NCBI GenBank assembly: GCA_016704485.1 | Contig: JADJAA010000001.1 | Location: forward strand, 1,554,824 to 1,618,823 | DNA: 64,000 nt | Source of the DNA: Flavobacteriales bacterium | GTDB lineage: Bacteria; Bacteroidota; Bacteroidia; Flavobacteriales_F; PHOS-HE28 | Direction of reading: 5' to 3' | In this document: piece after piece, positions 5,740 through 36,434 of the stretch | Position numbering within the stretch: the first letter of the stretch is position 1 | Layout: each line of letters opens with the position of its first letter | The notes under the pieces: model-generated | The model's database searches: none | What the model was told of the DNA's origin: nothing | The model's input: only the letters and a program-made list of their open reading frames with translations | Translations under genes and position numbers: made by a program

Positions 5740-6642
5740 TCATCGTGTTCTCCGGAGCCGAGAAGGCTCTTCAGACGTTGGCTCTTCGCCCCCGCGCAGA
5801 CCGTGCGCATCGCGCTCATCCAGAGTCCATTTGGGTTTGGCGGTCTTCAATCGCTTTTCCACTTTCTTAATGTGTTCGGCAGGTGGAATGTTCTCCGGTA
5901 GTGTGCCACCAATACGACGGATGGCATCACGCACCTCCTTGCCTACTGACTCGTGTGTGCGTATTGCCTGCTGATCCCCATGCACACCTTCCCGGGCCAA
6001 TTTGTCACGGGTCTGCGTCATGCGGAATTGGTTCGCAGCGAGTTCGGTTGCGTTCATGCGGTCCAGCAATTGCTCTTTGCCAGGGATGCCCTTGCGCTGT
6101 TTGATCTGTGCGTTACCAATACCTCCGTAGAGCCCTTTGTAACCAGCATCGTGGAATACACCGAACATGCGCCCGTTCACCCCAGCCTGTTGTGCAGCAC
6201 CGCTCAATGCTTTGAATTCTTCGGCTGTTTGCTTGCGAATTTGCAGCCGTTCTTTGTCTGCGGCCAATTGGTCATTCACTTCTTGGCGTCTCGCTTGCAC
6301 AACAAAATACTGCTGCGCTAAGGCGATCTCCGGCTTGCGAGGGTCGCCGTTGATGGCGATTAGATAGCAGGCGAATCGGGAGAGGTGGAAATCGGCCAAC
6401 TGGCGCTCACTGCCCGATCCAAGAGGGACCATTTTGCCGGCGCCGGCAAAATGGTCGGTCGGCTCATTCCCTGACTCTCTACACGCATCTTGTGCCCGTT
6501 TGATGGCCTGTTCAAATCGCCGCCATTGGTCATAACCTAACAACGGTTGCAGCGCTCTGGCACTCCAGAACTCGGCACCATGTGAATTGACCTGCTTCAG
6601 TTCTTCGAAGCTGGGCGGGGTAGGGTTCGGTAACTCACTCAT
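5740..6642 (-). CDS. dinD: DNA damage-inducible protein D family
   Basis: 300 aa. The N-terminus GAEFWSARALQPLLGYDQWRRFEQAIKRAQDACRESG...LSRFACYLIAINGDPRKPEIALAQQYFVVQ matches the conserved DinD layout as I remember it. Confidence 0.75.
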   Translation of the reverse strand: MSELPNPTPPSFEELKQVNSHGAEFWSARALQPLLGYDQWRRFEQAIKRAQDACRESGNEPTDHFAGAGKMVPLGSGSERQLADFHLSRFACYLIAINGDPRKPEIALAQQYFVVQARRQEVNDQLAADKERLQIRKQTAEEFKALSGAAQQAGVNGRMFGVFHDAGYKGLYGGIGNAQIKQRKGIPGKEQLLDRMNATELAANQFRMTQTRDKLAREGVHGDQQAIRTHESVGKEVRDAIRRIGGTLPENIPPAEHIKKVEKRLKTAKPKWTLDERDAHGLRGGEEPTSEEPSRLRRTR

Positions 6643-6849
6643 TCTGCTGACCGCTTTCTCGTCAACGCGGTTTGCACAATATACAGGCTTTGGACCAACA
6701 AATGAAGCTAACTACAATCCTCTAAAACCTTAATTCAGGAGCCGACCGCTTCGGCGTCTCCACAATCACAATGATCTCACAAATTGCCTACCTTTCATAG
6801 CGGTGTATTTGTAGATGAGGGTGGCATGGTGCAACCAAGATGAGGGAAC

Positions 6850-9003
6850 TTGAACGATCTTCGACCCGAACTAGCGCCCAATGTTACTAGCGCCCCACAA
6901 ACCCATGGATCCTGTCCTATGCGCACCTTAGAGGAAGATGCCTTGCGCTTGTTGCGGAGTTCGGTAGGGGATACCAAGGCCACCTTCAGGGAAGGTCAAC
7001 TGGAAGCCATCGTCGCCCTGGTCCGTGAGCGAAAGCGCTTGCTGGTGGTGCAATGTACCGGCTGGGGCAAGAGCAATGTGTATTTCATCAGTGCGAAGTT
7101 GCTGCGCGAAAAAGGGCATGGACCCACCGTTATCGTTAGTCCGCTATTGGCTTTGATGCGCAACCAATTGCAGGCCGCAGCGCGCATGGAGCTGAAGGCT
7201 ATCACCATCAACAGTGCCAACACGGATGAATGGGAGACGCTGCAAGAGCAGGTGGTATCCGGTGAAGCCGATGTGCTCCTGATCAGTCCGGAACGACTGG
7301 CCAACGAACGTTTTATCGCCGAGGTGCTGTTGCCCATCGCTGGACGCATCGGCATGCTCGTGGTGGACGAAGCGCATTGCATCAGCGATTGGGGGCACGA
7401 TTTCCGGCCCGACTATCGGCGCATCATCGCGATCCTGAAACAACTGCCTGCCAACCTACCGGTACTGGGTACAACCGCCACTGCCAACCAACGCGTGGTG
7501 GACGATCTGAAGGTGCAACTTGGCGACCTCACCATACAACGTGGGACCTTAGTGCGTGACAGTTTGATGCTCGATGCTGTGCAACTCCCCGACCAAGCCG
7601 CACGCCTCGCTTGGCGGACGCACTACCTGCCCCTGCTCCCCGGATCCGGTATCGTGTACACCCTTACCGTGCGCGATGCGGAGCGCGTTGCCGAATGGTT
7701 GCAACAGAACGGGATCGAAGCAAGGGCCTACCATGCCTCCGTCGTTGATACCGAAGATGGCGATCTGCGCGAGCGCTTGGAGCAGCAACTGCTCGATGGA
7801 AGCATCAAGGCCTTAGTTGCCACCACGGCACTCGGCATGGGCTACGACAAGCCCGACCTGGGTTTCGTGATCCACTTCCAAGCTCCCGGCTCCATCATCG
7901 GCTACTACCAACAAGTGGGGCGCGCCGGAAGGGCGATCGAGAAGGCCTACGGGATACTCCTACATGGCGAAGAAGATGCTGAGATCCATGCCTACTTTCA
8001 AGAGAACGCTTTCCCGAACGAGTCGAATGTGCTGCAGATACTGAAGACTTTAGAAGGTGGCAACGGTCTTTCCATCCGGCAACTGGAGCCGACCATGAAC
8101 CTGCGCTACGGGCAGTTGGAACAGGCCTTGAAATTCCTGAGCATGGAGGACCCTGCGCCGGTGGTGTTGCAGGACCATCTGTGGAAGCGCACACCGGTGG
8201 CCTACACCTTGGACCATGCGCACATCCAGCGCCTCATGGAACTACGAGAGCGCGAACGTGAGCAAGTTGTGGCCTACGTGCAACACACTGGCTGCCGCAT
8301 GGAATTCCTTCAACAGGCCTTGGATGATGTCGTGCATGCACCCTGTGGACATTGCGCCAATTGCTTGGACAAGCACTTCAAGGCGGACATGCCCCCAGCG
8401 GAAGTGGCCCGCGCGGCTACCTTTCTGCGCAGCGCGGAGATGGTACTCACCTGTCCGAAGGCACTACCCGCAGGTGGCTTGGATGCGCTCGACATTAAGG
8501 GCAACATACCGCTGGAGTTGCGCCCGCAGCCCGGAAGGATCCTCTGCCGTTGGGGCGACTCCGGTTGGGGCAAGTTGGTGGCGCAACAGAAGCACGACGG
8601 ACACTTCAAAGACGAACTCGTCCACGCCCTTGCCGAAATGGTGAACGAGCGCTGGTGTCCGGATCCGCCCCCAATGTGGGTGACCTGTGTGCCCTCCCTT
8701 CGCCATCCGGAATTGGTTCCCGATCTTGCACGCCGATTGGCCGCCAAGTTGGAACTTCCGTTCCACAACGTGGTGGAAAAGACCCGCCAGAACGAGGCGC
8801 AGAAAGCCATGCAGAACCGCTACCACCAGTGCCATAACCTCGATGGCGCCTTCGCCATCGGTACGGTGCCCGAAGGGCCTGTGCTATTGGTGGACGATGT
8901 GGTGGATTCCGGCTGGACCATTGCCATTCTTTCGGCACAACTGCTACAGGCCGGTTGTACCTTGGTGTACCCTATCGCACTAGCAAGCACCTCCCATACC
9001 TGA
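6850..9003 (+). CDS. RecQ-family helicase fused to a C-terminal ComFC-like phosphoribosyltransferase domain
   Basis: Walker A VVQCTGWGKSNVYF. RecQ DEAH box VVDEAHCISDWGHDFRPDY. Motif VI QQVGRAGR. Zn-Cys cluster CRMEF...CGHCANC. C-terminal RYHQCHNLDGAFAI...VLLVDDVVDSGWTIA (ComF/PRPP-binding signature). Start is TTG 6850 or ATG 6919. Confidence 0.85.
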   Translation: MNDLRPELAPNVTSAPQTHGSCPMRTLEEDALRLLRSSVGDTKATFREGQLEAIVALVRERKRLLVVQCTGWGKSNVYFISAKLLREKGHGPTVIVSPLLALMRNQLQAAARMELKAITINSANTDEWETLQEQVVSGEADVLLISPERLANERFIAEVLLPIAGRIGMLVVDEAHCISDWGHDFRPDYRRIIAILKQLPANLPVLGTTATANQRVVDDLKVQLGDLTIQRGTLVRDSLMLDAVQLPDQAARLAWRTHYLPLLPGSGIVYTLTVRDAERVAEWLQQNGIEARAYHASVVDTEDGDLRERLEQQLLDGSIKALVATTALGMGYDKPDLGFVIHFQAPGSIIGYYQQVGRAGRAIEKAYGILLHGEEDAEIHAYFQENAFPNESNVLQILKTLEGGNGLSIRQLEPTMNLRYGQLEQALKFLSMEDPAPVVLQDHLWKRTPVAYTLDHAHIQRLMELREREREQVVAYVQHTGCRMEFLQQALDDVVHAPCGHCANCLDKHFKADMPPAEVARAATFLRSAEMVLTCPKALPAGGLDALDIKGNIPLELRPQPGRILCRWGDSGWGKLVAQQKHDGHFKDELVHALAEMVNERWCPDPPPMWVTCVPSLRHPELVPDLARRLAAKLELPFHNVVEKTRQNEAQKAMQNRYHQCHNLDGAFAIGTVPEGPVLLVDDVVDSGWTIAILSAQLLQAGCTLVYPIALASTSHT

Positions 9004-10223
9004 TGGACCTAAGACCGGACGACCAAGCCACCTTGCTGCTTACCGCGCACCTGCCCGGAGGCAACGCCGTGCAGCCGCTCTCCACCGGCGAATGGTCACG
9101 GTTCAGTGCGTGGTTGCTTGCACATGAGCACACACCGGGCGACCTGTTCATTGGCGATCCGAAGCACACGCTGGCCACCTTTCAGGACAAGACCATCACC
9201 CTGGAGCGTATCGCACCGTTGCTGGATCGCGGTTTCCAAGTTGCCTTGTTGCTGGAGAAGTGGCAACGTGCAGGGCTCTGGGTGATCACGCGCTCCTCGC
9301 CGGATTATCCGCAACGGCTCACCACCATGCTCGGCGACCAAGCGCCGCCCTTGTTCCATGGTGCAGGCGACCGCCGCAAGCTGGAGACCAAGGCACTTGC
9401 TGTGATCGGATCGCGCAACGCCGCCGAGGCCGATCTGCACTTCGCCCGCCAACTGGGCCACGCCGCCGCACAACAGGGCTGGTCCATCGTAAGCGGTGGT
9501 GCGCGCGGTGTGGACGAAGCCTCCATGCGCGGTGCCATCGAAGCCAGTGGTACCGTGATCGGGGTGGTGGCCGATAGCCTGCTGAAGATGGCCACCAGTC
9601 ACAAGTACCGCGATGCCATCCAACGCAGTGACATCGTCCTGCTCTGTGCCTCGCACCCCGAAGTGGGTTTCTCCGGGGCCAATGCCATGGCGCGCAACAA
9701 GTATGTGTACTGCCTAAGCCGTGCGGCCGTGGTGGTGTGCTCCGATGCCAACAAGGGAGGTACCTGGGCCGGCGCCACTGAGGACCTGAAGAAGAAGTGG
9801 GTGCCCGTGTGGGTGAAGCACCATCCCGATCCACGCAGCGGCAACCGCGCACTGGTGGATCGTGGCGCACAGCCTTTGCCCGATTCCGATCCGCATGCCT
9901 TGGACATGGAGGACCTCGCCAAGGGTAAACTCTCCAGCGCTCAACTCTTCGAACTGCCCATTGCCTCCGACGTTGCCGCCGTATACCAAGCCTCCGGAAC
10001 CACGGCCCCGAAAGAGCTCACCGAAGCGGATGAGATGGAAGCCATCCTCAAGGCACTTGCCACTCCCATGACCGTGAAGGCCCTTGCCAAACATATCGCC
10101 ATGGACGAGGCCCGCATCAGCCACCTGCTGGACCAATTGGTACACCTGCACAAAGTGGAACCACCAACTGGCCGATCACGCAGCTACGCCCTAGCGGGTC
10201 CGGATCTTTTTAGTGGGGAGTGA
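9003..10223 (+). CDS. DprA/Smf-like (SLOG Rossmann) protein with C-terminal winged-helix
   Basis: ATG 9003-9005 overlaps the upstream TGA (9001-9003) as TGATG. DprA core LAVIGSRNAAEADLHFARQLG...GWSIVSGGARGVDEASMRGAIEASGTVIGVVADSL...ARNKYVY. C-terminal MTVKALAKHIAMDEARISHLLDQLVHLHKV. Confidence 0.8.
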   Translation: MDLRPDDQATLLLTAHLPGGNAVQPLSTGEWSRFSAWLLAHEHTPGDLFIGDPKHTLATFQDKTITLERIAPLLDRGFQVALLLEKWQRAGLWVITRSSPDYPQRLTTMLGDQAPPLFHGAGDRRKLETKALAVIGSRNAAEADLHFARQLGHAAAQQGWSIVSGGARGVDEASMRGAIEASGTVIGVVADSLLKMATSHKYRDAIQRSDIVLLCASHPEVGFSGANAMARNKYVYCLSRAAVVVCSDANKGGTWAGATEDLKKKWVPVWVKHHPDPRSGNRALVDRGAQPLPDSDPHALDMEDLAKGKLSSAQLFELPIASDVAAVYQASGTTAPKELTEADEMEAILKALATPMTVKALAKHIAMDEARISHLLDQLVHLHKVEPPTGRSRSYALAGPDLFSGE

Positions 10224-10663: not shown

Positions 10664-13600
10664 TCAACCCAACGTGAACTGCACGCGAGGCAATACCACT
10701 TCATAGCTCTTATCCTTCTCCTTATCGTACCAATGCACAATGTATTCTGCCGTAGCGCCTGAAACACGATATCCCTCATTTGCGAAACGGGGTAGTGTCG
10801 AGTCAATGAACTTGCGCGCGTAGAGCAGCACATTGCCGTTCCCGGTGCCAAGACCAAGTGCACTTCCGTTCGTGAATTGTTTCTCATCCGGCACCATATT
10901 GGAGCCCGCAGAAAGGGATGTGATCCGGTCGGAGTTATATGAACACGATCCCAGGTTCACCTCCTTCATACCAAGCACGTATTCAAGTTTATTGGGCCGA
11001 GGGTATACCACCTCATTCGTTTCTCTGATCAACGAGGCATGTTTGTAGGTGGGAAGGAACTGATCATTCGTGTGGATCACTAATTGGTCCATTGATCTTG
11101 TGCAGGCCACATAGAGTAGGCGGAGGTCTTTGTCCTCCTCCATCGGGTAGTTCTTCTGGTATACGAACACGTTATTGAACTCCTTGCCCTTGCTCTTGTG
11201 CATGGTAGATACATGCACCACTCCTTTCTGTGGTTTCACGGCGTCGCTGATCCTGATCTCACGCACGAAAGCATCCCATTCTGATAGGTCATGTCGCCCT
11301 TGGTTCCCTTTCTTGAAGAGCGCAAGTAGGTCTTTCATGTCCGCCCGCAATGGATTCCCCTTGAGCCCTTCTATATATTCCTTAACGGCATTGTCCCAGA
11401 CCTCCTTGGGAATAACACCAATTCCTGGATGGCGTTCACGAACGAATTGGCCGAACGCTCGGACCTCGCGCAAGCGACCTACGGGGAAGTCATCCGAGCC
11501 ACCGATGTAGCGCGCCTTGACGCCATGTTGCTCCAGCATGGCCGTTGCCATGATCGCCTCATTGTTCGTGCGGGTCAATACACTTGTCGTGCCGGTGAGC
11601 GTCGACCGTGCGACGTCCTTTACCAGTCCTGTCAAATGATAGCCGCCGGAATATCGGACCACACGTTGCACTCCCGGCCGATCGTCATTTGCTACAAGTT
11701 CCTCACCATCTTTTATCCGGACTTTGATCTTGGAGGCAATATGATTCGTCAATCGAACGATCGTCTCCTTGCTCCGGTAATTCACAAGTAGGCTATGCGA
11801 TCGCGCCTTGAAGCGGGTTCGGAATTCCGACATGAATCTTGGCGATGCACCGCGCCATTCATAGATGTTCTGGTCGTCATCACCCACTGCGATGATGCGT
11901 GGTTTCTCTGCGGTCTCAGCAAGCATCTGGATCAGTTGCCATTGCTCCTGATCAACATCTTGGAATTCATCCAATACGATCACGCTTTTGTTCGCAATGG
12001 AGGTGACATCCACTTCGCCGGCATGGATAGCCGCCATGGTGCGGCTGATCACAGTTTCCGACCGGTCCAGATCGCCGAGCTGACCCATCAGTTCAAAACA
12101 CAAGCCATGGAATGTCGTGATCCGGATAAGGCCTCGATACTCCGGAACCATGGCATGGACGCGGTCGCGGAACTCCATTGCCGCAGCCTTCGAGAACGTG
12201 AGCATAAGGAATTGCTCAGGCTTCACATCCTCAATGAGCAGAAGGCTCGCCACCTTATGGACAAGGACCCGGGTCTTACCGCTCCCCGGACCCGCAGCAA
12301 CAAGGATCTGGTCCGTACTATCATTGACCACTCCCAATTGCTTCGTATCCAGATCCCCGAAAAGCTCAGTGAATCTGCTTCGGGTGATAGGCCGTGTGAT
12401 ATCGGTGCTGCGCTTCGGAAAGTATTTCTGCACGAAGACATCGTGCTCGAAGCGGAAATAGTCATCTACGAAAGATAACGCGGCCTGAACGCTTTCCATA
12501 CGGCGTGCTGCATACTCTCCCACCATATGGATCTGTTCCACCCTGTTCTGGTAATGATGCCTCAGGTTACCGTAATCCTCTTGGGTGTATTGCTTCCGTA
12601 CGTTCTGCTCCACGCGCTCCACATTCATCCGTTGGTACATGACCATGAACCCGTCCTGCAGGCTCAGTACATTCATGCCGTGTAGGAACAGCAATGCATC
12701 GGCAATGGCTTTCAGGTCATGCTCTTTGCCGAACATCCCTTCGGCCATTGCCGCTCTCAGCCCCAACAAGGAGAATTTCACACGCAATTCCTGCTTGGCA
12801 TCGTCAGCGAGCTTCGACGTATCGGGTACTAGTTTCTCAAGTTGTTCGAAACAAGCCAAGGCAAGTGCTTGGCGCGCTTCCACCTCCTTCCGTAGTTCTT
12901 CCGGGTCCTTCAATAGTGTTATCCTGTAGCTATCTGCTTGCCGGTCCAGGCGCTTGATCCCTACCAGTCTTCGTTTCTTCCAGATCAGGAACAGTGGCTT
13001 CAGATCCTCTATCCTGCTGTCCACCCCCTGGTCAAGAATGCCTTGGTTCAGCGCGCGATAGGTCACGGTCATTTCCTGTTCGGCCAGGAGCCCTACCAAT
13101 GCCTTTTCGGTATTCAGGATGCGTTGCAACCGTGCTTTGGAACCCGCACGTGGTCGACCATCCACATAGGCGGTCAGGTCCTGCTCATCGTTCAAGACCG
13201 CGATGTTCCGCAACAGTTGTACGGTCTCGATCACATCACGCAACTTCATTCCGAGATGACCCGCGACCACATCGACTTGCGATACACCCACTCCATCCTC
13301 ATCCGGTTTCACTAGTCGCTGCAATACCCGTATGCAATTCTCCTTCTGTTTTTCTGTTAATCCGGTATTGTCCCGTACTATCCGTAAGGCATCCTCCAGT
13401 CCTTTGACCATTAGACCGGTAGCGAAAACCTGCGGGGAGTTCAGCGTGCGCTTTATGTAGCCTCGGTCCTCTAGGGCTGCAAGGGATGCGGCCACGCGGT
13501 TCTGGATATCACGCATCTCTTCATCCCATCCCGCGGCTTTGGCAAGCTCCGAAGCCGAACGACTGATCTTGTCCCGGATCTTGGTCATGCCTTTTACCGC

Positions 13601-15496
13601 ACGCCATACCTGCTGTATCTCCTTTTGATTGAGCTTGGTCCGTTGAAGCAAGTGGAAATGGCCGCCCAGGTCATTCTCATTGTATAGGATGTAGCACTTG
13701 GCATCAATGTCTTTGTTGCGGCCAGCGCGACCGGCTTCCTGTACGTAGCTCTCCAGCGAACTGGAGATGTTGTAGTGGATGACGGATCGCACATCCTCCT
13801 TGTCCACACCCATACCGAAAGCCGAGGTTGCCACCATGACATCCACCTCACCATCCATGAAGCTCTCCTGATTGAGCTGCTTCTCTTCGCGCTCCATCTT
13901 GCCATGAAATCCGCGGACCGATATCCCGATCGCCTTGATGCGATCTACAAGCTCATCAACGCGTTTGGTCCGGCTTGCATACACGATCGCGGGTTTCTCA
14001 CAGGTGTTCAGCAGGCCCAATAACACACGTTGACGGGCTTCGGCAGTGGTGTCCTCCACAGGAAGGACCTCGTACTCCAGGTTCTCCCGCCGCGCTTGGC
14101 TTATATAGGGAATAAGGTCCAGACCAAGGCCATTCTTGAAATAGTTCCGGATGTCTTCCACCACTTGCGGCTTGGCGGTGGCAGTAAAACAGGATACGGG
14201 TATGGGCTTCTCGCGCCCAAGGTCGATCTGAAGCTGTTTCAGATAGGGCGCGATGTACAAGTAGTCCACCCTGAAATCATGCCCCCAACTGGAAAAGCAA
14301 TGGGCCTCATCTATAACGAACCGCGAGATCTGTCTCTTCTGCAGCAGACGGGAAAGCGTGGGAGAACGAAGCGTTTCCGGAGCGATATACAACAGGTGGA
14401 TCCCGCCATCCTCTACTTGCTTCAGGACTTCTTGCCGCTCCAATGGGGAAAGTAGTCCGCTCAGATGGGCCGCACGCACTATCTGGTGCCGATGTTCCAG
14501 CACCTCCACCTGATCTTTCATCAGCGAAACCAACGGCGAGATGACCACGGTGAGCGAACGGGTAAGCGCACCTTCCATTAGAGCAGGCAGCTGGAACGTG
14601 AGCGACTTGCCTCCGCCAGTGGGGAAGACGGTCAGGACCGACTCTCCGGCCAACGCTGAACCGACGGCCTTTTCCTGCACTCCAGCCTGGCTTTCACCGT
14701 CGAACAATCGGAAGTGATCATACCCGAAATACTCCTTCAGTCCGCGCTTTGCATCCATCCAGGTCGCACAGTACTCGCAGCCCGCATCATTACACTGTGC
14801 GAACCGCAGGTTATGCAGTACCTGTTGGGTAAAAGGCAAGCTATGTACGACCCAAGGGGGTAGGATGGATGCTTCATCGGTCGTGTCGATCAGGGCCAGC
14901 GCATGCGCGAGCTCTACAGGTCTATCAGTAGTAAAGCGTTGCAGCGGAGCAGAAGCGCAAATGAGGCCTGAGTAACGCGAGGTGATCAAGTCGGCTACGT
15001 CTGTCTTGTCCTGCTCATGTGCCGCAAGCTCGATCATGCCATCGTACCCTTCCTGTCCGGAAAGCAAACCGGCATAGACCGAACGCATGACAACAGGCAA
15101 ACAATTGAATGTACCTAAAAGTTCTTCCAATAGTTCGCGACACAGTTTTGCGTCACTGAGCGGATCGTTGTCGCCGTCCTCGTTGCGGATCTTGTAGCCC
15201 TTCACCAACTTGTGATAGGGCTTATTGGCGTACAGCAATGCACTCCAACACAAAGTATCCAAGAGCACCTTACCCTTTAATACATTCTGCCCCATGTGCT
15301 TCCGAAGCACAGGCGCATCATGGCCAACAAGGTTGTGCCCGGCGACAATGGTTGCCCTGTCTATCAGCTTCTTAAGTCCATCCAGCTTACGCTTGTGGAA
15401 TTCGCTGCTCCCGAGCACAGCTCCTACGTCCAGGAGTTTTTTACTCCGCTGATCTAACTCGAGATCCAGAATGAGGACCTTGTCCAGTGCGTTCAT
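10664..15496 (-). CDS. 1610-aa fusion: DnaQ-like 3'-5' exonuclease + RecQ helicase core + UvrD/PcrA-type SF1 helicase
   Basis: Exonuclease: LILDLELD...AGHNLVGHDAPVL. RecQ: FPTGGGKSLTFQLPAL, VIDEAHCFSSWGHDFRVDY, QEAGRAGR. UvrD: VAAGPGSGKTRVLVHKVASL, VLDEFQDVDQEQW, AVGDDDQNIYEWRGA, VSTMHKSKGKEFNNVFV, LLYVACTRS. The 4.8-kb frame is uninterrupted. Confidence 0.85.
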   Translation of the reverse strand: MNALDKVLILDLELDQRSKKLLDVGAVLGSSEFHKRKLDGLKKLIDRATIVAGHNLVGHDAPVLRKHMGQNVLKGKVLLDTLCWSALLYANKPYHKLVKGYKIRNEDGDNDPLSDAKLCRELLEELLGTFNCLPVVMRSVYAGLLSGQEGYDGMIELAAHEQDKTDVADLITSRYSGLICASAPLQRFTTDRPVELAHALALIDTTDEASILPPWVVHSLPFTQQVLHNLRFAQCNDAGCEYCATWMDAKRGLKEYFGYDHFRLFDGESQAGVQEKAVGSALAGESVLTVFPTGGGKSLTFQLPALMEGALTRSLTVVISPLVSLMKDQVEVLEHRHQIVRAAHLSGLLSPLERQEVLKQVEDGGIHLLYIAPETLRSPTLSRLLQKRQISRFVIDEAHCFSSWGHDFRVDYLYIAPYLKQLQIDLGREKPIPVSCFTATAKPQVVEDIRNYFKNGLGLDLIPYISQARRENLEYEVLPVEDTTAEARQRVLLGLLNTCEKPAIVYASRTKRVDELVDRIKAIGISVRGFHGKMEREEKQLNQESFMDGEVDVMVATSAFGMGVDKEDVRSVIHYNISSSLESYVQEAGRAGRNKDIDAKCYILYNENDLGGHFHLLQRTKLNQKEIQQVWRAVKGMTKIRDKISRSASELAKAAGWDEEMRDIQNRVAASLAALEDRGYIKRTLNSPQVFATGLMVKGLEDALRIVRDNTGLTEKQKENCIRVLQRLVKPDEDGVGVSQVDVVAGHLGMKLRDVIETVQLLRNIAVLNDEQDLTAYVDGRPRAGSKARLQRILNTEKALVGLLAEQEMTVTYRALNQGILDQGVDSRIEDLKPLFLIWKKRRLVGIKRLDRQADSYRITLLKDPEELRKEVEARQALALACFEQLEKLVPDTSKLADDAKQELRVKFSLLGLRAAMAEGMFGKEHDLKAIADALLFLHGMNVLSLQDGFMVMYQRMNVERVEQNVRKQYTQEDYGNLRHHYQNRVEQIHMVGEYAARRMESVQAALSFVDDYFRFEHDVFVQKYFPKRSTDITRPITRSRFTELFGDLDTKQLGVVNDSTDQILVAAGPGSGKTRVLVHKVASLLLIEDVKPEQFLMLTFSKAAAMEFRDRVHAMVPEYRGLIRITTFHGLCFELMGQLGDLDRSETVISRTMAAIHAGEVDVTSIANKSVIVLDEFQDVDQEQWQLIQMLAETAEKPRIIAVGDDDQNIYEWRGASPRFMSEFRTRFKARSHSLLVNYRSKETIVRLTNHIASKIKVRIKDGEELVANDDRPGVQRVVRYSGGYHLTGLVKDVARSTLTGTTSVLTRTNNEAIMATAMLEQHGVKARYIGGSDDFPVGRLREVRAFGQFVRERHPGIGVIPKEVWDNAVKEYIEGLKGNPLRADMKDLLALFKKGNQGRHDLSEWDAFVREIRISDAVKPQKGVVHVSTMHKSKGKEFNNVFVYQKNYPMEEDKDLRLLYVACTRSMDQLVIHTNDQFLPTYKHASLIRETNEVVYPRPNKLEYVLGMKEVNLGSCSYNSDRITSLSAGSNMVPDEKQFTNGSALGLGTGNGNVLLYARKFIDSTLPRFANEGYRVSGATAEYIVHWYDKEKDKSYEVVLPRVQFTLG

Positions 15497-15719: not shown

Positions 15720-17519
15720 TTACAAGCCTTCGTAATAGCCCTTGATCTTTTGTGCCATCAGGTGTTTGCGTTCCTCCAAAAAGGTCTGGTAGCTTTTTAC
15801 ATCATAGTCGAAGATAGCTGTTGGGATGCAGTTCTCGCGCATGTTCTTGCGCAGGTCGGCCATGTTACGCAGACCACCGATGTCACCTTTGCCTTGCTCA
15901 AGCTTGTCCGCAACGGTCGTAAAGTATACCGCTGGCGTTTTGTCACCGATCTTGATGTTTCCGGGTTGGTCCATGTACACCAGATTGCTCACGCGATTGT
16001 ACAGACTGCGACCCAAGCCATTCTTCTTCAACAAGCTGCGGGGGAAGATGTGGTGTACATCTCCGCGTGTAAGCAACATGTCGTTCACGGTGAGGTGCCG
16101 ACTGAACAGACCATGGTCGTTCGCGTTGGCTTGGGCAGCTAGGAATACGCCGAAGAACGGACTGCTCATCACTGGGCTTTCCAAATGCCCTGGAAGTACA
16201 GAATTCCAGAACGCATCACTCAGGTCACCTGCTTCGATCTCGGCTAAGTAGTCGGAAGCATTGCGTTCGTTCAGCCGTTTGATGTCAAAGTCGAATTGGC
16301 TTTCGAAGCTGCCCGTTGCACGTTCGGTCAAGATGCTCATAACGTACCAACGGCGCACCAAGCTTTGTAATTCATTGCCTCGGTCCATTCCTTGACGACG
16401 CAAATGCAGGTACAAGAAATAGGCGAAGTTGATCGCGTTCTTACTGCGCATCAACTTGCTGCGCACGAAGCCTGCCGACCGAAGGATCAACGTGAAGAAC
16501 TTGAAGTCAGTCTCATTCATGAAGCGGGCCACACCAGCGTCCAACTGCTTGAAAGAATTTTCCATAATGGTCTCCTCGAACGTGCGGTTCACGAAATCGC
16601 GTCCACTAAGTAGGCTGACCAGGTCGCTCATTTTACCACGACCGAATTCCACACCGCTGGCAACACGCAACATATCCGTGTAGGCCGGGTCATAGAGATC
16701 TTCGGTTTCGCTGCGTAGCCACTTCATGTTCTTGAAGTGCTCCGTGGCTGCGAACTCGGGGTCGTTCTCCTTGATGTGCTCGTAGTACTGCGGCTCTTTG
16801 CTCAGGTGGCAGAAGTAATCGATGGCCTTGCGCAGAACCGGACCACCATGGTGCTCGTTGCTGGCGATCTTGCTCATGGCAAAGTCCGCTTGGCTCAATA
16901 CGACTCCTTTGCTGTTGATGCGGATGAAGATCTCCGTTACCGTCTCTATGTCCAGTTCGTGGTTCAGTTCGATCACGCCGATCTGCCGCTTGGCTAAATT
17001 GGCCAATTGCCCAAGGCTGCTCTCCACAAGCTCGGCATCTGCATCCGGGTTTGCTGCGGTGTATGCTTTGTTCAATTTGATCAAGCTGAAACCACTCCCA
17101 AAGAACACCGCGATATCCGGCAACCACGCCTTGTCCTTTTGGATGATGGGCGTTTGCACCTCGAACTTCTGGGTGATGGGATGGAACGCGATCTTGATCT
17201 TGATCCGCGCATAATCCTTGTCCACCACGTATTCATCCATTAAAGCAGCACGCAATGCTGTTATGCGTTGTTGCCCATCGATCAAGATCTTCTTGCCGCT
17301 GCCAATGCTGCCATCTTTCAAGCGCACATCCGGGTTCTTCCATGTAATAATGTAGCCCACTGGAAAACCTTGGTAGATGCTATCCATCAGATCGCGGACT
17401 TTGCTCTTATCCCAAACGAATGGGCGCTGGATCTCGGGTATCGCGATCTCTTTCTCTTTCACCCACGACAATAAACTTTCGATAAGCGGCTGTTGGATAC
17501 TGTATTTCTGTGTTTGCAT
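15720..17519 (-). CDS. GmrSD/BrxU-like DUF262-DUF1524 modification-dependent (type IV) restriction enzyme
   Basis: DUF262 N-terminus IPEIQRPFVWDKSKVRDLMDSIYQGFPVGYII and LIDGQQRITAL. C-terminal His-Me finger GDVHHIFPRSLL. Start is ATG 17519 (MQTQKY) or TTG 17534. Confidence 0.8.
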   Translation of the reverse strand: MQTQKYSIQQPLIESLLSWVKEKEIAIPEIQRPFVWDKSKVRDLMDSIYQGFPVGYIITWKNPDVRLKDGSIGSGKKILIDGQQRITALRAALMDEYVVDKDYARIKIKIAFHPITQKFEVQTPIIQKDKAWLPDIAVFFGSGFSLIKLNKAYTAANPDADAELVESSLGQLANLAKRQIGVIELNHELDIETVTEIFIRINSKGVVLSQADFAMSKIASNEHHGGPVLRKAIDYFCHLSKEPQYYEHIKENDPEFAATEHFKNMKWLRSETEDLYDPAYTDMLRVASGVEFGRGKMSDLVSLLSGRDFVNRTFEETIMENSFKQLDAGVARFMNETDFKFFTLILRSAGFVRSKLMRSKNAINFAYFLYLHLRRQGMDRGNELQSLVRRWYVMSILTERATGSFESQFDFDIKRLNERNASDYLAEIEAGDLSDAFWNSVLPGHLESPVMSSPFFGVFLAAQANANDHGLFSRHLTVNDMLLTRGDVHHIFPRSLLKKNGLGRSLYNRVSNLVYMDQPGNIKIGDKTPAVYFTTVADKLEQGKGDIGGLRNMADLRKNMRENCIPTAIFDYDVKSYQTFLEERKHLMAQKIKGYYEGL

Positions 17520-17620
17520 GATCGTGTTGAACAACCTATGTATTGTCCTTCGTGTGATTATTGTTCAGCGCTGTATCAGTTAGCTGCGTGGCGAAGATGC
17601 GCCTAAAGTATTTGTTCAGA

Positions 17621-20600
17621 TCAAGCACTGCGCTCACCCGGCTGTGCGTTCCCTTGCACCCACTCCACTACCGAGATGATCTTATCCTGATCATTCTCAT
17701 TCGGGAATAGGCCGAAGATCCCTTCTTGGTGTAGGTCCGTGAACGTTGAACCCGGCTCTGCGAGCATGCGTTTGTCGATCACGCCGTTCACCGTGAGGTG
17801 CCGAATGATGGAATCGATGAAGTGGATCTGCGTAGCACTGAAGATGGAGCCGGACAAGAATTCGCCGAAGGCTGCTTTTGCTGCGCCTTCATCAAGGCCG
17901 ATGATGCTGCGAATGAAATAGCCTAGTGGCCGTTCCTCGCCAAGTTCCTTCATCAAAGCCTCCTTCGTGCCGCGTTCGTCTCCATCGAACAGGATGCGTT
18001 CCAGTTCCACTAGCTCAGCGGTCGTGATCGGCTCATTGGTGTATAGTTTGTGAATGGTAAGCTGGTGTTTGTGCGAGCGGATGAACTCCTCTACACGCAT
18101 CCGATAGCTACGCATGGTGTAGCTACCTGGCATGGAGATGATATCCTCACCCTCGCTCACCAACTCATCTCTCAGGTCCGAGTATACCACTTTGCGTTCC
18201 TCGCGCGGTATCAAGCGCACTAGATCGCGCAATTGTTTTCGTGTGAATTCCAAGGCTTCCAGACCGAACACAGCGGCTCGTTGTTGTTGATCATTTGCGA
18301 CATCAAGAACTGCTTTGATCGCTGGATACCGCTCCTGCACTACGGGAATGTTGGAGAGCCGGGCAAGCTGTGTGGCGGTTGAGGCCAACGTGCGGAACAG
18401 GCGATCTACTGACGGCGCCTCTTGGGCCACAGCAATTTCCAGATCGAGCATAAGTAGGTCAAATCGTTTGGCCAGCTCGTCCTTGTCCGGTAGTTCGATC
18501 AAGTGACCAACGGTCTCGAACAGATCACTGATCCCGCTTTTTGATAACGCATTCCATGCGGTACGTTCACGGTAGTGATCGAGCACACGTTGCGCAGGAC
18601 GAATGCGCACGGTGTGCCGCAATTCCCAAAGTGCCTGGACCCAACTATGCGCACTATTCAAAAGCTCAACGCGTAGTGCTTGATCTTTTGGTACCTGATG
18701 GGCTGGTTCACGCAGTTGTTCACTAAGTAGGATAGTTGCTTCAAAGATCCGTTGCGATAGGCTGGGGGAGCGCACAGGTTCAATGCCTTCCGGCCGCAGG
18801 TTGAAGAAGCTGTAGTTGCCACAGAGATCGAAGATCCTGAAGTTCTCCTTGTGCTGGCCGGGACCGAACAGATCCGGGCATAAGCGTGTGCCGCGGCCAA
18901 CCATTTGCCAGAACTTGGACTTGCTATAGACCGGTTTAAAGAACACCAAGTTCACGATCTCAGGAATATCAATACCCGTATCCAACATATCCACACTCAC
19001 GGCGATCTGTGGATACCGGTCCTTATCACTGAAATTATCTATGATGCTCTGGGAGTATTGCTCCTTACTGTGTACCACCGACATGAAATGCCCACCGTAC
19101 TGCGGGAACTGATCTTCAAAACGGTTCTGTATGGCCCGGGCATGGTCTATGTTCCTTGCAAAGACAACGGTCTTGCCCAGCTTCTCACCACCTTCCACTT
19201 TGATCCCGTTCTCCATCACATAGGCCAACACCTGATCGATGGTGTTCGAGTTGAAGAGCCAGTTATTGATCGCGGGCGCTCCGATCTCTTCGGGTATATT
19301 CCCTTGGTCGTCCCGGAAGGTCTCTTCGTAATGTGTCCTATCGCTCTCACTCAGGTCATCGTAGCGGATACCGCGTTGCAGAAAGCCGAAGTCCACTGCT
19401 TTGCCAATGGGCGGCACCAGAAAACGATCGGCTACGGCCTGCCCTAATTCATAGAACGATGTCGGGTTATGCTCTTCGCAATCGAACAAGGCATAGGTAT
19501 CCCGATCCCCTTGGTCGTGTGGTGTTGCAGTAAGGCCGACCAACAAGGAATCGAAATAGGTGAAAATAGCACCGTACCGATCGTACACTGAGCGATGCGC
19601 CTCATCCACAATGATCAGATCGAAGTGACCGACACCGAAGGTCTTCACATCATCACTCCGCACTTGGTCCACGCGGTTCATTACCGTGGGGTAGGTGCTG
19701 AAGACCACCCGTGCGCTTTCATCATAGCGCTGTTTGGTGAGATCCAATGTGGTAACATTCGGCAGGTTCTTCTCAAAGGCCCGTTTTGCCTGTGTGACCA
19801 AGGCATTGCGATCAGCGAGAAAGAGCACACGCTTCGCCCAATTCGCTTTCAGTAGAAGGTCCACTAACGCGGCAACGGTACGCGTCTTGCCAGCCCCAGT
19901 GGCCATTACGATCAATGCTTTTCGCTTAAGACCGCGCATGCCATCTTCATCCACCCAACTTTCTGCAACCCGCTTGATCGCTTGATGTTGGTAATAGCGT
20001 TCCACGATCTGCTCATCGATCGGCACATGCCGAATGTTCACACGACCGATACGCCGATCAACGACCCGTTGCAATTCGTCCCGCGTGTAAATGCCCTGTA
20101 CAGCGCGTGGACCATAAAAGGTGTCATCCCAGATCCACGTATCGAAACCGTTGCTATAGAATATCACCGGGCGCTGTCCGGTCATGCGTTCCAGGCAATC
20201 AGCGTAAAGGCTTGCTTGCACACGGCCTTGTTGGGCATCGTGGGTGGTGCGCTTGGCCTCTACTACGGCCAGCGGTTTACCATCTGCACCCCAGAGCACG
20301 TAATCTACCTTGCCGTTGCCGTTGGGATTGGTGCTCAATGGCATCCCTGTTACCGGGTATTCGATCACGTTGGATGCGGCAGGGTCCCAGCCTGCTTCGC
20401 GCAACAGTTCATCAATGAAGAGTAACCGTGTATCCGCCTCCGAATATTCAGAAGCAGGTATGGGTATGTTCTCATGGCGCTCCTTGCGCTCCTGGATCGC
20501 TGCCAGGCGTTCTGCCAATATCTGCTTTTCTCCTTCTAATTTCAACCGTTGCTCGCGCTCGGTCTCCATCGCTACACGTTGCGCTTCATAACGCTCCTGT

Positions 20601-21079
20601 AACTGTTGAAGCTCCGCGCTGTTCGGAACTTCCTTCACTTTCACTTGTACTATGAGTGCCTCCTCTTGGAATGTTCCTACCTCGATGTCGAATGCGCTGT
20701 ACGTACGACCCATCCATTTCAAGAACCGGAACAAGAGGCGCAATGAGGCTACGCTCTGGCTCTCCACCACCTTCTTATCATGCGCAGCGGCATTGCCGGT
20801 ACGCCGGATGTACTGCAGGTCGATGTAGATGGGTGGTGGTATCAGTACCCGGAAGGACCGTTCATCCATCAACGCGCTCAACTGGCTGTTGTAAGGGCGC
20901 TGTAGGTCACTGTCGTTATCATACAGCCAGTGCACGGTACGTTCCAACGCACGGCGGGCATACACGGCAGAGGCGATCGGTGCGGCCAAGGCATACCGCT
21001 CCGCGTCCATGGCCTCCTTCGCAATGGAGGGCCACTCTTCAACGAGGAAGCGGAAGTTGCTCGGGGTGCTCAACGACAT
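17621..21079 (-). CDS. hsdR: Type I restriction enzyme R subunit with N-terminal DUF4145/HEPN-like domain and EcoEI_R_C-type C-terminus
   Basis: N-terminus YARRALERTVHWLY...YIRRTGNAAAHDK. Nuclease VDYVLWGADGKPLAVVEAKRT. Helicase MATGAGKTRT, IIVDEAHRS, LTATP. C-terminal FIRSIIGLDEGAAKAAFGEFL... Confidence 0.9.
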   Translation of the reverse strand: MSLSTPSNFRFLVEEWPSIAKEAMDAERYALAAPIASAVYARRALERTVHWLYDNDSDLQRPYNSQLSALMDERSFRVLIPPPIYIDLQYIRRTGNAAAHDKKVVESQSVASLRLLFRFLKWMGRTYSAFDIEVGTFQEEALIVQVKVKEVPNSAELQQLQERYEAQRVAMETEREQRLKLEGEKQILAERLAAIQERKERHENIPIPASEYSEADTRLLFIDELLREAGWDPAASNVIEYPVTGMPLSTNPNGNGKVDYVLWGADGKPLAVVEAKRTTHDAQQGRVQASLYADCLERMTGQRPVIFYSNGFDTWIWDDTFYGPRAVQGIYTRDELQRVVDRRIGRVNIRHVPIDEQIVERYYQHQAIKRVAESWVDEDGMRGLKRKALIVMATGAGKTRTVAALVDLLLKANWAKRVLFLADRNALVTQAKRAFEKNLPNVTTLDLTKQRYDESARVVFSTYPTVMNRVDQVRSDDVKTFGVGHFDLIIVDEAHRSVYDRYGAIFTYFDSLLVGLTATPHDQGDRDTYALFDCEEHNPTSFYELGQAVADRFLVPPIGKAVDFGFLQRGIRYDDLSESDRTHYEETFRDDQGNIPEEIGAPAINNWLFNSNTIDQVLAYVMENGIKVEGGEKLGKTVVFARNIDHARAIQNRFEDQFPQYGGHFMSVVHSKEQYSQSIIDNFSDKDRYPQIAVSVDMLDTGIDIPEIVNLVFFKPVYSKSKFWQMVGRGTRLCPDLFGPGQHKENFRIFDLCGNYSFFNLRPEGIEPVRSPSLSQRIFEATILLSEQLREPAHQVPKDQALRVELLNSAHSWVQALWELRHTVRIRPAQRVLDHYRERTAWNALSKSGISDLFETVGHLIELPDKDELAKRFDLLMLDLEIAVAQEAPSVDRLFRTLASTATQLARLSNIPVVQERYPAIKAVLDVANDQQQRAAVFGLEALEFTRKQLRDLVRLIPREERKVVYSDLRDELVSEGEDIISMPGSYTMRSYRMRVEEFIRSHKHQLTIHKLYTNEPITTAELVELERILFDGDERGTKEALMKELGEERPLGYFIRSIIGLDEGAAKAAFGEFLSGSIFSATQIHFIDSIIRHLTVNGVIDKRMLAEPGSTFTDLHQEGIFGLFPNENDQDKIISVVEWVQGNAQPGERSA

Positions 21080-21273
21080 GGAGGCGCAATTGACGATATT
21101 CTAAGCACTTGTACAATTACAAGATGCGAATAAGTCGAGCCTATGATGTGCGGCTTGTGATGGTAACTGCCGCGTGTGGCCCTTTACGGCTCTAAAATAC
21201 ATGTGGATACTTCAGAACCGGTCTTCTTGCTGCTAAGAGAATGCTAATTCCTCTGAAGCACTACATTGCGGAC

Positions 21274-23375: not shown

Positions 23376-23388
23376 CCATTTCCGATCC

Positions 23389-23460
23389 CTACTCCCCCCA
23401 AAACGCCCCCTGCAGCAAAAGCCCGAACAAGTCCTCGCTCCGGCGTAGGTTCGCAGTGGA
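23389..23460 (-). pseudogene. Orphan 3' end of an hsdS gene (about 23 codons plus stop)
   Basis: Hand translation STANLRRSEDLFGLLLQGAFWGE*. The intact hsdS C-terminus is AASLHQSEGLFGSLLQGAFRGELGN*. 52 of 63 nt are identical to 24315-24377 in a hand alignment. Confidence 0.7.
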
Positions 23461-23476
23461 ACACCGGTAGTGCTGT

Positions 23477-24274
23477 CTATCCACTCCACTTCACGATATC
23501 CGCCACTACCGTCTTGTAGCTCAAGCCACGCAGCCGTTTCACCACCACGATGCGGGTATCTCCGTACTGCTCTGCGCGTTCGACCGACGAGTCAGTTGGT
23601 CTACTTTCCTTGATCCCCAGCCCCGTGCGAAAATGCGACCACCACGTATCGTTGGTGAGCACCACACAGAGTTTCGGCTGTAATTCCTCCAGTTCCATGC
23701 GCACCAGATCCACGCATTCGGGTCGTTGCAGGATGCGCTCGTCCACATCCGGATTGGCCACTTCGCCACGGTTCTGCGGTGCGATCTTGTAGAGGTTGGA
23801 CCATACCAGTTGACGGTTCCATTCCCACGCGTCCTCATTTGTGATGCCGTGCCGAACCTGCATCAGCTTGACCGTGGCCTGCCAGAAGAACGATGACCAA
23901 GCGCGGTAGTTCTTCTCCCGTTCGGTATACCAGGCTTGTTCTTCCGGGCTACACTTGTTCAAGGTAGTGTTCGTCCACAACACGTTCACCCAATCCAACG
24001 GGGAGTGGTCTTTGAAGGGTTCGTTGGAGTAGCGCTTGCTCTCTTCTATGCGGCCCCTCGGTACTGCCTTCGTGAAGTCCCACTCCGGGTGCCAACCACC
24101 CACGGCCTGGCCGTAGACCAGCACATCAACCGGTTCATTCGTTCGCGTACCGATGCTCGGATAGAAGTCTGTGAAGTGGGTGCGTTGCGGAAAGGTGCGC
24201 GCCAGTCGACGTTGAAAGGCTTCCAAGTGTTGCTGGTAGGCGGCGTTATAGGTTGGTGAGAGGGTGCGATACAT
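23477..24274 (-). CDS. Hypothetical 266-aa protein lodged between hsdS and the hsdS remnant
   Basis: ATG at 24274 (MYRTLSPTYNAAYQQHLEAF...). The longer track ORF to 24451 runs out of frame through the hsdS 3' end. There is no confident family. VDVLVYGQAVGGW faintly resembles UDG-superfamily motif 1, but this is unverified. Confidence 0.6.
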   Translation of the reverse strand: MYRTLSPTYNAAYQQHLEAFQRRLARTFPQRTHFTDFYPSIGTRTNEPVDVLVYGQAVGGWHPEWDFTKAVPRGRIEESKRYSNEPFKDHSPLDWVNVLWTNTTLNKCSPEEQAWYTEREKNYRAWSSFFWQATVKLMQVRHGITNEDAWEWNRQLVWSNLYKIAPQNRGEVANPDVDERILQRPECVDLVRMELEELQPKLCVVLTNDTWWSHFRTGLGIKESRPTDSSVERAEQYGDTRIVVVKRLRGLSYKTVVADIVKWSG

Positions 24275-24302
24275 TATGTCCGTGCTGCGTGATCCTCTTC
24301 CG

Positions 24303-32234: not shown

Positions 32235-32343
32235 TGGTCCTCGCCACCAAGGGTCTATATGGTTGGATAATCGCTCAACCAACGAACTTCCCTATGGCAA
32301 CGGACCAAAAGTCCCGGTCACCTGTGCAGTCTATCTGCACAGT

Positions 32344-36426: not shown

Positions 36427-36434
36427 TGAAGAGC

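What the first reader, a model, noticed from the sequence alone, without database searches (positions are those of the whole stretch)
6850..10223. RecQ-ComFC(PRTase) fusion translationally coupled to a DprA-like protein: a ComFA/ComFC/DprA-like triad inside a defence island
The 717-aa protein joins a RecQ core (DEAH-SDWGHDFRPDY, QQVGRAGR, Zn cluster) to a ComF-type PRTase domain (RYHQCHNLDGAF...VLLVDDVVDSGWT). Its TGA overlaps the ATG of a DprA/SLOG-fold gene (TGATG at 9001-9005). In natural competence, a helicase (ComFA), a PRTase-like protein (ComFC) and DprA cooperate on incoming ssDNA. Here the same three folds occur as a two-gene module. It sits next to dinD and among restriction systems, far from any competence genes. 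My inference is that it is an ssDNA-sensing or ssDNA-processing module used against invading DNA, or for island transfer. I cannot match it to a named defence system.
Basis: partly seen in the sequence, partly recalled or inferred. Interest (0 to 1): 0.7.

Follow-up and report, generated by a model that had tools for sequence, protein, structure and literature searches.

The report
Known PsyrTA (RqlHI) toxin-antitoxin defence pair

Summary
Two intact, co-directional genes overlap in cTGATGg at 9001-9005. The only correction is the first gene's start: most likely ATG 6919 (694 aa), not TTG 6850 (717 aa).

Both proteins match PADLOC's PsyrT (E 4.7e-287) and PsyrA (E 9.1e-125) models end to end. 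The helicase is 59% identical over 688 residues to E. coli RqlH. It keeps the aspartate aligned with RqlH D663, which that protein needs for toxicity.

In 80 orthologous loci from many phyla, 76 have PsyrA directly downstream. Of those 76 pairs, 72 have a stop-start gap of 31 nt or less, and 29 of these overlap. None of this window's neighbours travels with the pair elsewhere.

The RecQ-ComF/PRTase architecture was described in 2012. Toxicity and neutralisation were shown in 2013 and 2015, anti-phage activity in 2022. The ComFA/ComFC/DprA analogy was printed in 2015 and 2017.

The surrounding defence island is real: dinD, type I R-M, GmrSD and Septu.

PsyrTA's biochemical mechanism and trigger are still unsolved. 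This copy does not help resolve them.

The parts
6919..9003 (+). psyrT (= rqlH): toxin/effector, 694 aa, RecQ-like helicase fused to a ComF-type PRTase (stop codon included)
   Evidence: PADLOC PsyrT PDLC03928, E 4.7e-287, residues 3-693 against model 3-686/689. 59% identity over 688 aa to the 698-aa E. coli RqlH.
6979..7986 (+). RecQ-family SF2 helicase core (residues about 21-356)
   Evidence: TIGR00614 recQ_fam 242.9 bits against cutoff 219.8. DEAD and Helicase_C domains. PDB RecQ 4q47, E 2.6e-52. Motifs I, II and VI are present in 76-77 of 77 orthologues.
7057..7074 (+). Helicase motif I / Walker A, TGWGKS (K51)
7366..7377 (+). Helicase motif II, DEAH (residues 150-153)
   Evidence: 77 of 77 orthologues
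8293..8364 (+). Tetracysteine zinc-binding cluster (C459, C476, C479, C482)
   Evidence: Pfam RecQ_Zn_bind 24.4 bits against cutoff 25. The cluster is present in 57 of 77 orthologues.
8401..9000 (+). C-terminal ComF-type phosphoribosyltransferase domain (residues 495-694), the toxic domain by homology to RqlH
8881..8919 (+). PRPP-binding loop VLLVDDVVDSGWT. D660 aligns with RqlH D663, whose D663A change abolishes toxicity.
   Evidence: D659 and D660 are conserved in at least 97% of 77 orthologues.
9001..9005 (+). TGATG stop/start overlap (1 nt) between psyrT and psyrA
   Evidence: Among 76 orthologous pairs, 29 overlap and 43 have gaps of 0-30 nt.
9003..10223 (+). psyrA (= rqlI): DprA-like antitoxin, 406 aa (stop codon included)
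   Evidence: PADLOC PsyrA PDLC03927, E 9.1e-125, residues 1-387 against model 1-387/398. 45% identity over 291 aa to E. coli RqlI.
9261..9875 (+). DprA / SLOG Rossmann-fold domain (residues 87-291)
   Evidence: PF02481, E 6.8e-36; PF18306, E 2e-12. PDB DprA 3maj, E 1.8e-11; ShosA 9vzo, E 1.2e-5. This is the most conserved part of the family.
10035..10202 (+). Putative C-terminal winged helix-turn-helix of PsyrA (weak evidence)
   Evidence: Weak hits only: Csa3 HTH E 0.0018 and ArsR-type HTH E 0.0077. RqlI is described as having a C-terminal HTH. This region is not conserved across the family.
6643..6918 (.). Divergent intergenic region between dinD and psyrT; presumably holds the operon promoter, which was not identified
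   Evidence: One sigma-70-like site at 6691-6718, no more than expected by chance. No LexA-box match here.

Best explanation
This is an intact two-gene PsyrTA (RqlHI) module, a toxin-antitoxin-type anti-phage system.

PsyrT is the effector. Its N-terminal RecQ-like motor is a DNA-dependent ATPase and 3'-5' ssDNA translocase/helicase, as shown for M. smegmatis RqlH. Its C-terminal ComF-type PRTase domain binds PRPP through the VDD..DS loop and is the genotoxic part. In E. coli RqlH this domain causes SOS induction, filamentation and growth arrest, and the D663A change abolishes these effects. D663 corresponds to D660 here.

PsyrA is a DprA-like protein translated by coupling from the overlapping stop/start. 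It binds PsyrT and keeps it harmless.

Inferred steps:
- During infection, neutralisation by PsyrA is lost. Either PsyrA is titrated by phage ssDNA or recombination intermediates, or it decays after host shut-off. Both routes have been reported for the sister system ShosTA.
- The freed PRTase then disturbs nucleotide metabolism or DNA, so that replication of phage and host stops. This is abortive infection or growth arrest.

Shown in relatives: helicase activity, PRTase-dependent toxicity, physical interaction, operon structure, and anti-phage activity in a heterologous host. Shown here: orthology, intact catalytic motifs, gene order and coupling, autonomy of the pair, the ComF-like fold, and the defence-island setting. 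Not shown anywhere: the PRTase substrate, the trigger, and the role of the helicase in defence.
For: - Full-length PADLOC PsyrT and PsyrA matches.
- 59% and 45% identity to E. coli RqlH and RqlI, with D660 aligned to RqlH D663.
- Literature: PsyrTA = RqlHI is both a TA system and an anti-phage system, and the psyrA deletion could not be transformed. The PRTase is the toxic domain, RqlI binds RqlH, the genes form an operon, and rqlI starts close to or overlapping the rqlH end. RqlH is a 3'-5' helicase with a ComF-like C-domain.
- 76 of 80 orthologous loci keep PsyrA directly downstream. 72 of those 76 pairs have a gap of 31 nt or less.
- Helicase motifs and the PRPP-loop aspartates are conserved.
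- The neighbours are defence genes, but none co-travels with the pair.
- ShosTA mechanism used as the analogy.
Against: - No experiment exists for this copy.
- The PsyrTA PRTase activity is uncharacterised.
- In a native E. coli host and on overexpression, PsyrTA gave no detectable protection against the phages tested. A rqlHI deletion showed no fitness defect. The defence phenotype is therefore host- and phage-dependent.
- ShosA neutralises ShosT without direct binding (section heading), whereas RqlI binds RqlH. The ShosTA analogy for the trigger may therefore not transfer.
- My survey of flanking genes in 15 loci found strong defence hits in only a minority and had no control set.
Confidence: 0.85

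Rival explanations
1. The pair is mainly a selfish addiction module. It stabilises itself and the island it sits in through post-segregational toxicity and gives no meaningful phage defence in this host.
For: It was first found as a toxin-antitoxin pair. Native and overexpressed E. coli PsyrTA showed no protection against the phages tested. A rqlHI deletion has no fitness cost. The pair moves as a self-contained two-gene unit into unrelated contexts, including between housekeeping genes in E. coli.
Against: Anti-phage activity was reported for cloned PsyrTA operons. This copy lies within a roughly 35-kb run of defence genes. The two roles are not mutually exclusive.
Confidence: 0.08
2. The pair is a housekeeping DNA repair or recombination helicase (RqlH in the mycobacterial sense) with a DprA-like loader. 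It acts on the cell's own DNA, not on invaders.
For: M. smegmatis RqlH is a genuine 3'-5' helicase in organisms that lack RecQ. Russell and Mulvey proposed a cooperative function on bacterial DNA. dinD lies next door.
Against: Distribution is patchy and strain-variable: 1656 of 5426 E. coli genomes, and spread across many phyla at only 46-59% identity. Here it sits in a defence island, not a core context. The PRTase domain is genotoxic, not protective. No SOS box was found upstream.
Confidence: 0.04
3. The pair is a competence-like machine for uptake, processing or transfer of ssDNA. This is the reader's alternative: a ComFA/ComFC/DprA analogue used for island transfer.
For: The C-domain fold is closest to ComF. 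ComFC binds ssDNA. PsyrA has the DprA domain. The analogy is already in the literature.
Against: Scores for the true competence families are far below cutoff: comF 20.1 against 233.55, GntX 21.9 against 304, dprA 88.9 against 191.15. The helicase is RecQ-type. No com, pilus or transfer genes turned up among the ORFs scanned in the window. ComFC is membrane-associated, and nothing here suggests that. Only 2 of the 28 plasmids that hold a match (E <= 1e-50; 12 of them full-length) are predicted to be mobile.
Confidence: 0.02
4. The pair is part of a larger multi-gene system with its neighbours, either dinD upstream or the convergent 1610-aa RecQ-like/UvrD-like helicase downstream.
For: Physical adjacency in this window. 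The neighbour also carries a RecQ-like core.
Against: tblastn with each of 15 neighbouring proteins, including dinD, the double helicase and GmrSD, found no copy of any of them next to PsyrTA in the 80 other loci. The only hits were weak HsdM matches in 4 loci and a WYL match in 1. The double-helicase hits in all 80 loci are to PsyrT itself. E. coli carries the pair alone.
Confidence: 0.01

Closest known systems
PsyrTA / RqlHI (Pseudomonas syringae PsyrTA; E. coli F11 RqlH-RqlI)
   Same: Same two proteins, domain order, gene order (toxin upstream), stop/start coupling, sizes (694/406 aa here, 698/400 aa in E. coli) and PRPP-loop aspartate. Full-length profile matches. 59% and 45% identity.
   Different: Only the host lineage (Bacteroidota-like) and the insertion site differ, plus the C-terminal ~110 residues of PsyrA, which are not conserved across the family. 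No functional difference is evident.
Mycobacterium smegmatis RqlH
   Same: RecQ-like ATPase, family-specific linker, tetracysteine zinc domain and ComF-like PRTase C-domain. No HRDC domain (one search shows none here either).
   Different: Russell and Mulvey report that M. smegmatis strains, like nearly all Gram-positive organisms with RqlH, lack an RqlI partner. This copy has one.
ShosTA
   Same: A PRTase-containing toxin paired with a DprA-like antitoxin, and a TA-type anti-phage system. PsyrA's second-best PADLOC hit is ShosA (E 6.5e-23).
ComFA / ComFC / DprA of natural transformation
   Same: The same three kinds of fold: an SF2 helicase, a zinc-associated PRTase and DprA. The PRTase domain's best structural match is ComF.
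   Different: The helicase is RecQ-type. The domains are fused. Scores for the comF and dprA equivalog models are far below cutoff. There is no competence context. The demonstrated behaviour is toxin-antitoxin, not DNA uptake.
DpdF helicase of the Dpd 7-deazaguanine DNA-modification system
   Same: The RecQ-like helicase core gives strong hits to DpdF models (E 2.5e-89).
   Different: The match covers only the helicase core. NCBIfam DpdF scores 149.7 against a cutoff of 550. No other dpd genes were seen.

Membership tests
PsyrTA / RqlHI | [quoted passage not shown] | tested here: met
   PDLC03928, E 4.7e-287, residues 3-693 against model 3-686/689. 59% identity to E. coli RqlH. PRTase fold confirmed.
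PsyrTA / RqlHI | [quoted passage not shown] | tested here: met
   PDLC03927, E 9.1e-125, residues 1-387 against model 1-387/398. PF02481, E 6.8e-36. 45% identity to E. coli RqlI.
PsyrTA / RqlHI | Adjacent genes on the same strand, toxin upstream, start of the antitoxin close to or overlapping the toxin stop | tested here: met
   TGATG at 9001-9005. Same arrangement in 76 of 80 loci. Described in the same way for rqlHI.
PsyrTA / RqlHI | Intact PRPP-binding loop aspartate needed for toxicity (RqlH D663) | tested here: met
   D660 aligns with D663. Loop VLLVDDVVDSGWT.
PsyrTA / RqlHI | Toxin is toxic alone and is neutralised by the antitoxin; the pair protects against phage | not testable with these tools
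   Shown only for relatives. Negative in one native E. coli host.
Canonical RecQ (E. coli type) | Reaches the RecQ equivalog score and has RQC/HRDC domains | tested here: not met
   TIGR01389 scores 273.2 against 640.2. Only the subfamily model TIGR00614 passes. No HRDC hit.
Canonical DprA | Reaches the DprA equivalog score | tested here: not met
   TIGR00732 scores 88.9 against 191.15. PRK10736 scores 53.6 against 495.
ComFC / GntX | Reaches the ComF family score as a stand-alone zinc-finger-PRTase protein | tested here: not met
ShosTA | The best profile match of the antitoxin is ShosA, and the toxin is a helicase-less ShosT | tested here: not met
   ShosA scores 79.5 bits against 414.9 bits for PsyrA. 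No ShosT among the top hits for the toxin.
Dpd system (DpdF) | Reaches the DpdF equivalog score and lies in a dpd gene cluster | tested here: not met
   NF041063 scores 149.7 against 550. The neighbours are not dpd genes.

The most novel reading that the evidence does not exclude
The most novel reading concerns PsyrTA in general, not this copy. The ComF-type PRTase of PsyrT might act directly on DNA exposed by its own RecQ motor, for example by phosphoribosylating bases or engaging ssDNA as ComFC does. The SLOG/DprA-fold PsyrA would then reverse or shield that lesion. This would be a DarTG-like DNA-modifying toxin-antitoxin pair, not a nucleotide-pool poison. It is essentially the 2015 Russell and Mulvey model. 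My results are compatible with it but do not test it: the fold is nearer ComF than ShosT or the salvage PRTases, and the helicase motifs are strictly conserved.
Probability: 0.1. Interest if true: 0.6.

Novelty: already known. Interest (0 to 1): 0.1.

Why it matters
This copy matters little. It adds one more orthologue, from a Bacteroidota-like genome, to a system that standard tools (PADLOC, DefenseFinder) already name.

The family itself remains mechanistically open: the PRTase substrate, the trigger and the role of the helicase are unknown.

Three by-products of this check may be of modest use to people working on PsyrTA:
- The C-domain fold is clearly closer to ComF than to ShosT.
- A subclade lacks the zinc cluster.
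- The PsyrA C-terminus is unconstrained.

Tried and rejected
- SOS regulation shared with dinD. There is no LexA-box match in the divergent region, and window-wide counts equal chance.
- Promoter and terminator scans around the operon. Counts are at or below the shuffled expectation.
- A larger system with neighbours. No neighbour recurs in 80 loci.
- Finding the source contig by exact protein look-up. It is not on record. The closest fragment (P0001, 71% identical) sits on an uninformative 2.3-kb metagenome scaffold.
- Island borders. No tRNA genes in the window. GC content varies from 44% to 61% without a clean boundary.
- Sequence-only comparison of the PRTase domain with solved structures. 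It reaches only the PRPP loop of PRPP synthetases and did not find ComF or ShosT. Fold comparison was needed.
- Neighbourhood survey of 15 other loci against PADLOC. Strong type I R-M, AbiEi and HEC-01A hits appear in a minority of loci, but there was no control set, so I do not claim enrichment from it.
- N-terminal ~250 aa of the 1610-aa neighbour. No PDB sequence hit.
- Phage genomes. No PsyrT homologue in 50,697 records.
Full report
**1.

The window has two co-directional ORFs at 6850..9003 and 8955..10223. The sequence cTGATGg at 9000-9006 places the TGA stop of the first gene (9001-9003) one base into the ATG (9003-9005) of the second.

The only correction concerns start codons. The 717-aa figure is the mechanical ORF from TTG 6850. 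Profile and pairwise alignments begin at the ATG at 6919, which gives 694 aa. The second gene begins at ATG 9003 (406 aa), not at TTG 8955.

**2. What it is.**

Pfam finds DEAD and Helicase_C domains, a near-threshold RecQ zinc-binding domain and a sub-threshold PRTase domain in gene 1. In gene 2 it finds the DprA domain plus SLOG cluster 4.

PADLOC settles the identity:
- Gene 1 matches PsyrT (PDLC03928) at E 4.7e-287 over residues 3-693 of 694.
- Gene 2 matches PsyrA (PDLC03927) at E 9.1e-125 over residues 1-387.
- The runners-up are far behind. DpdF models match the helicase core only. ShosA scores 79.5 bits against 414.9 bits for PsyrA.

NCBIfam places gene 1 in the RecQ family (TIGR00614, 242.9 bits against 219.8). 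It does not reach the scores for true RecQ, DpdF, ComF or GntX. Gene 2 falls below the DprA equivalog cutoff.

A distant DNA search in E. coli found a "RecQ family helicase" plus "DprA" pair between gntU and yhgN. It is present in 1656 of 5426 complete genomes. The 698-aa E. coli protein is 59% identical to gene 1 over 688 residues. Its numbering matches the published F11 RqlH: the DIVD motif starts at D663, which aligns with D660 here. Gene 2 is 45% identical to the E. coli partner over the N-terminal 291 residues.

**3. Family-wide checks.**

The 80 best came from many bacterial phyla at 46-59% identity.

Partner gene and coupling:
- In 76 of the 80 loci a PsyrA homologue lies directly downstream on the same strand. 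Three of the four exceptions run off the contig within 1.5 kb.
- Among the 76 pairs, 29 overlap. The commonest forms are ATGA (20 pairs) and a one-base overlap as here (8 pairs).
- A further 43 pairs have gaps of 0-30 nt, and only 4 exceed 30 nt. Translational coupling is therefore a property of the family, as Russell and Mulvey also noted.

Conservation in PsyrT and PsyrA:
- Helicase motifs I, II and VI and the SDWGHDFR block are present in 76-77 of 77 sequences. The two PRPP-loop aspartates are conserved in at least 97%.
- The tetracysteine cluster is present in only 57 of 77 sequences, so a zinc-less subclade exists. This window's protein has the cluster.
- PsyrA's DprA core is its constrained part. 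Its C-terminal ~110 residues show no conserved column, and some orthologues lack them.

Wider distribution:
- None of 15 neighbouring proteins from this window is found next to PsyrTA in the other 80 loci, apart from weak HsdM matches in 4 loci and a WYL match in 1. The pair is an autonomous two-gene module.
- Full-length PsyrT orthologues occur on 12 plasmids, including haloarchaeal ones.
- No orthologue occurs in 50,697 phage genomes.

**4. The "ComF-type PRTase" sub-claim.**

Sequence alone gives only weak support:
- PF00156 scores 19.3 bits against a cutoff of 26.3.
- GntX and ComF hits have E-values of about 1e-4.
- A profile of 78 C-termini reaches only the PRPP loop of PRPP synthetases.
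- At family level, however, 63 of 78 members hit PF00156.

I therefore collected homologues of the C-terminal 200 residues. They were mostly fragments of the same proteins, which sources name RecQ or phosphoribosyltransferase. I aligned 91 sequences and obtained a confident model with mean pLDDT 93.4 and pTM 0.90.

No PsyrT or PsyrA orthologue structure appears among solved structures.

**5. Surroundings.**

| Window position | Strand | Feature |
|---|---|---|
| 5740-6642 | - | dinD, divergent neighbour (NF008573, 364.5 bits against 242; also PADLOC candidate PDC-S13) |
| 10664-15496 | - | 1610-aa protein with RecQ-like and UvrD-like modules, convergent with psyrA |
| 15720-17534 | - | GmrSD-type gene |
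| 17621-27004 | mostly - | type I HsdR, HsdS and HsdM cluster |
| 28213-30909 | - | methyltransferase-like gene |
| 30972-33354 | - | radical-SAM PDC-M51A plus a WYL protein |
| 35458-38822 | - | Septu PtuAB |

The rest of the window looks like a Bacteroidota chromosome, with T9SS sorting domains, DUF6089, BamA and NAD kinase. An IS transposase lies at 50712-52367. The defence-island description is correct.

**6. What is already published.**

- Ordonez et al. 2012 defined RqlH as a RecQ-like ATPase, a linker, a tetracysteine zinc domain and a ComF-like PRTase C-domain. They showed 3'-5' translocase and helicase activity.
- Sberro et al. 2013 found PsyrTA as a toxin-antitoxin pair (cited).
- Russell and Mulvey 2015 made several findings. 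RqlH is genotoxic through its PRTase domain, and D663A abolishes this. RqlI binds and restrains RqlH, and the genes form an operon. They explicitly discussed the parallel between comF (helicase plus PRTase) and DprA.
- Iyer et al. 2017 restated that parallel and suggested triggering by invasive DNA.
- Millman et al. 2022 listed PsyrTA among newly validated anti-phage systems and could not delete psyrA.
- A 2025 preprint states that among defence PRTases only ShosT has been characterised.
- ShosTA studies report the following: PRPP-dependent toxicity, disturbance of purine metabolism, ssDNA and RecA binding by ShosA, and triggering through an unstable antitoxin.
- One study found no protection by PsyrTA in a native E. 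coli host.

**7. Mechanism.**

Most likely, PsyrT is a helicase-tethered PRTase toxin held inactive by direct binding of co-translated PsyrA. Infection removes that restraint, and the PRPP-dependent activity blocks DNA replication.

- Orthology and intact motifs are shown here.
- Toxicity, binding and helicase activity are shown in relatives.
- The trigger and the chemistry are inferred.

The rivals are a pure addiction module, a housekeeping repair function, a competence-like function, or part of a larger system. Each is less likely, for the reasons given in the rival entries.

**8. Verdict.**

Novelty: already known. Interest: low.

Noticed in passing
window 10664-15496 (-): A 1610-aa protein combines a RecQ-like SF2 core (TIGR00614, 283.8 bits; DpdF-like in PADLOC) with a UvrD-like SF1 helicase (PF00580, E 1.3e-40; GajB-like). 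Its ~250-aa N-terminus shows DEDD-exonuclease-like motifs by eye but has no Pfam or PDB sequence hit. It is convergent with psyrA, did not match any single named system, and is absent from the other 80 PsyrTA loci.
   Followed up: partly
L041, L047, L049-L052, L054, L056, L057, L060, L061, L064-L068, L071, L072, L076, L077 (PsyrT orthologues, around residues 440-500): 20 of 77 PsyrT orthologues lack the tetracysteine zinc cluster that Ordonez et al. list among RqlH's domains. This suggests a zinc-less subclade. The window's protein has the cluster.
   Followed up: partly
window 9888-10220 (PsyrA residues 296-406) and orthologues: The C-terminal ~110 residues of PsyrA have no conserved column across 72 sequences. 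Orthologues fall into length classes of about 300-325 aa and about 400-450 aa, so the putative wHTH tail is optional or fast-evolving.
   Followed up: partly
window 30972-33354 (-): A B12-binding radical-SAM protein matches the PADLOC candidate PDC-M51A (E 6.6e-117). It lies next to a WYL-domain regulator inside the island.
   Followed up: no
window 35458-38822 (-): A Septu-like PtuB/PtuA pair. The 795-aa PtuA ORF also has PtuB-like matches in its N-terminal ~220 residues, which suggests a fusion or a duplicated nuclease module.
   Followed up: no
window 21999-23375 (+): A class III nucleotidyl cyclase (PF00211, E 7e-56) with weak Pycsar PycC matches sits between the type I HsdR and HsdS/HsdM genes. 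No effector partner was identified.
   Followed up: no
window 15720-17534 (-): A GmrSD_N (type IV restriction-like) protein of 604 aa also matches the PADLOC candidate HEC-05. It has no NCBIfam match.
   Followed up: no
plasmid hits H14-H16 (Halanaeroarchaeum, Halomicrobium): Full-length PsyrT orthologues (about 44-45% identity) occur on haloarchaeal plasmids, so the system crosses the bacteria-archaea boundary. None was found in 50,697 phage genomes.
   Followed up: no
window 50712-52367 (-): An IS-type DDE transposase (DDE_Tnp_1_6 plus DUF772) lies between the defence-gene run and the housekeeping genes (BamA, NAD kinase). It may be a clue to how part of the region was assembled.
   Followed up: no
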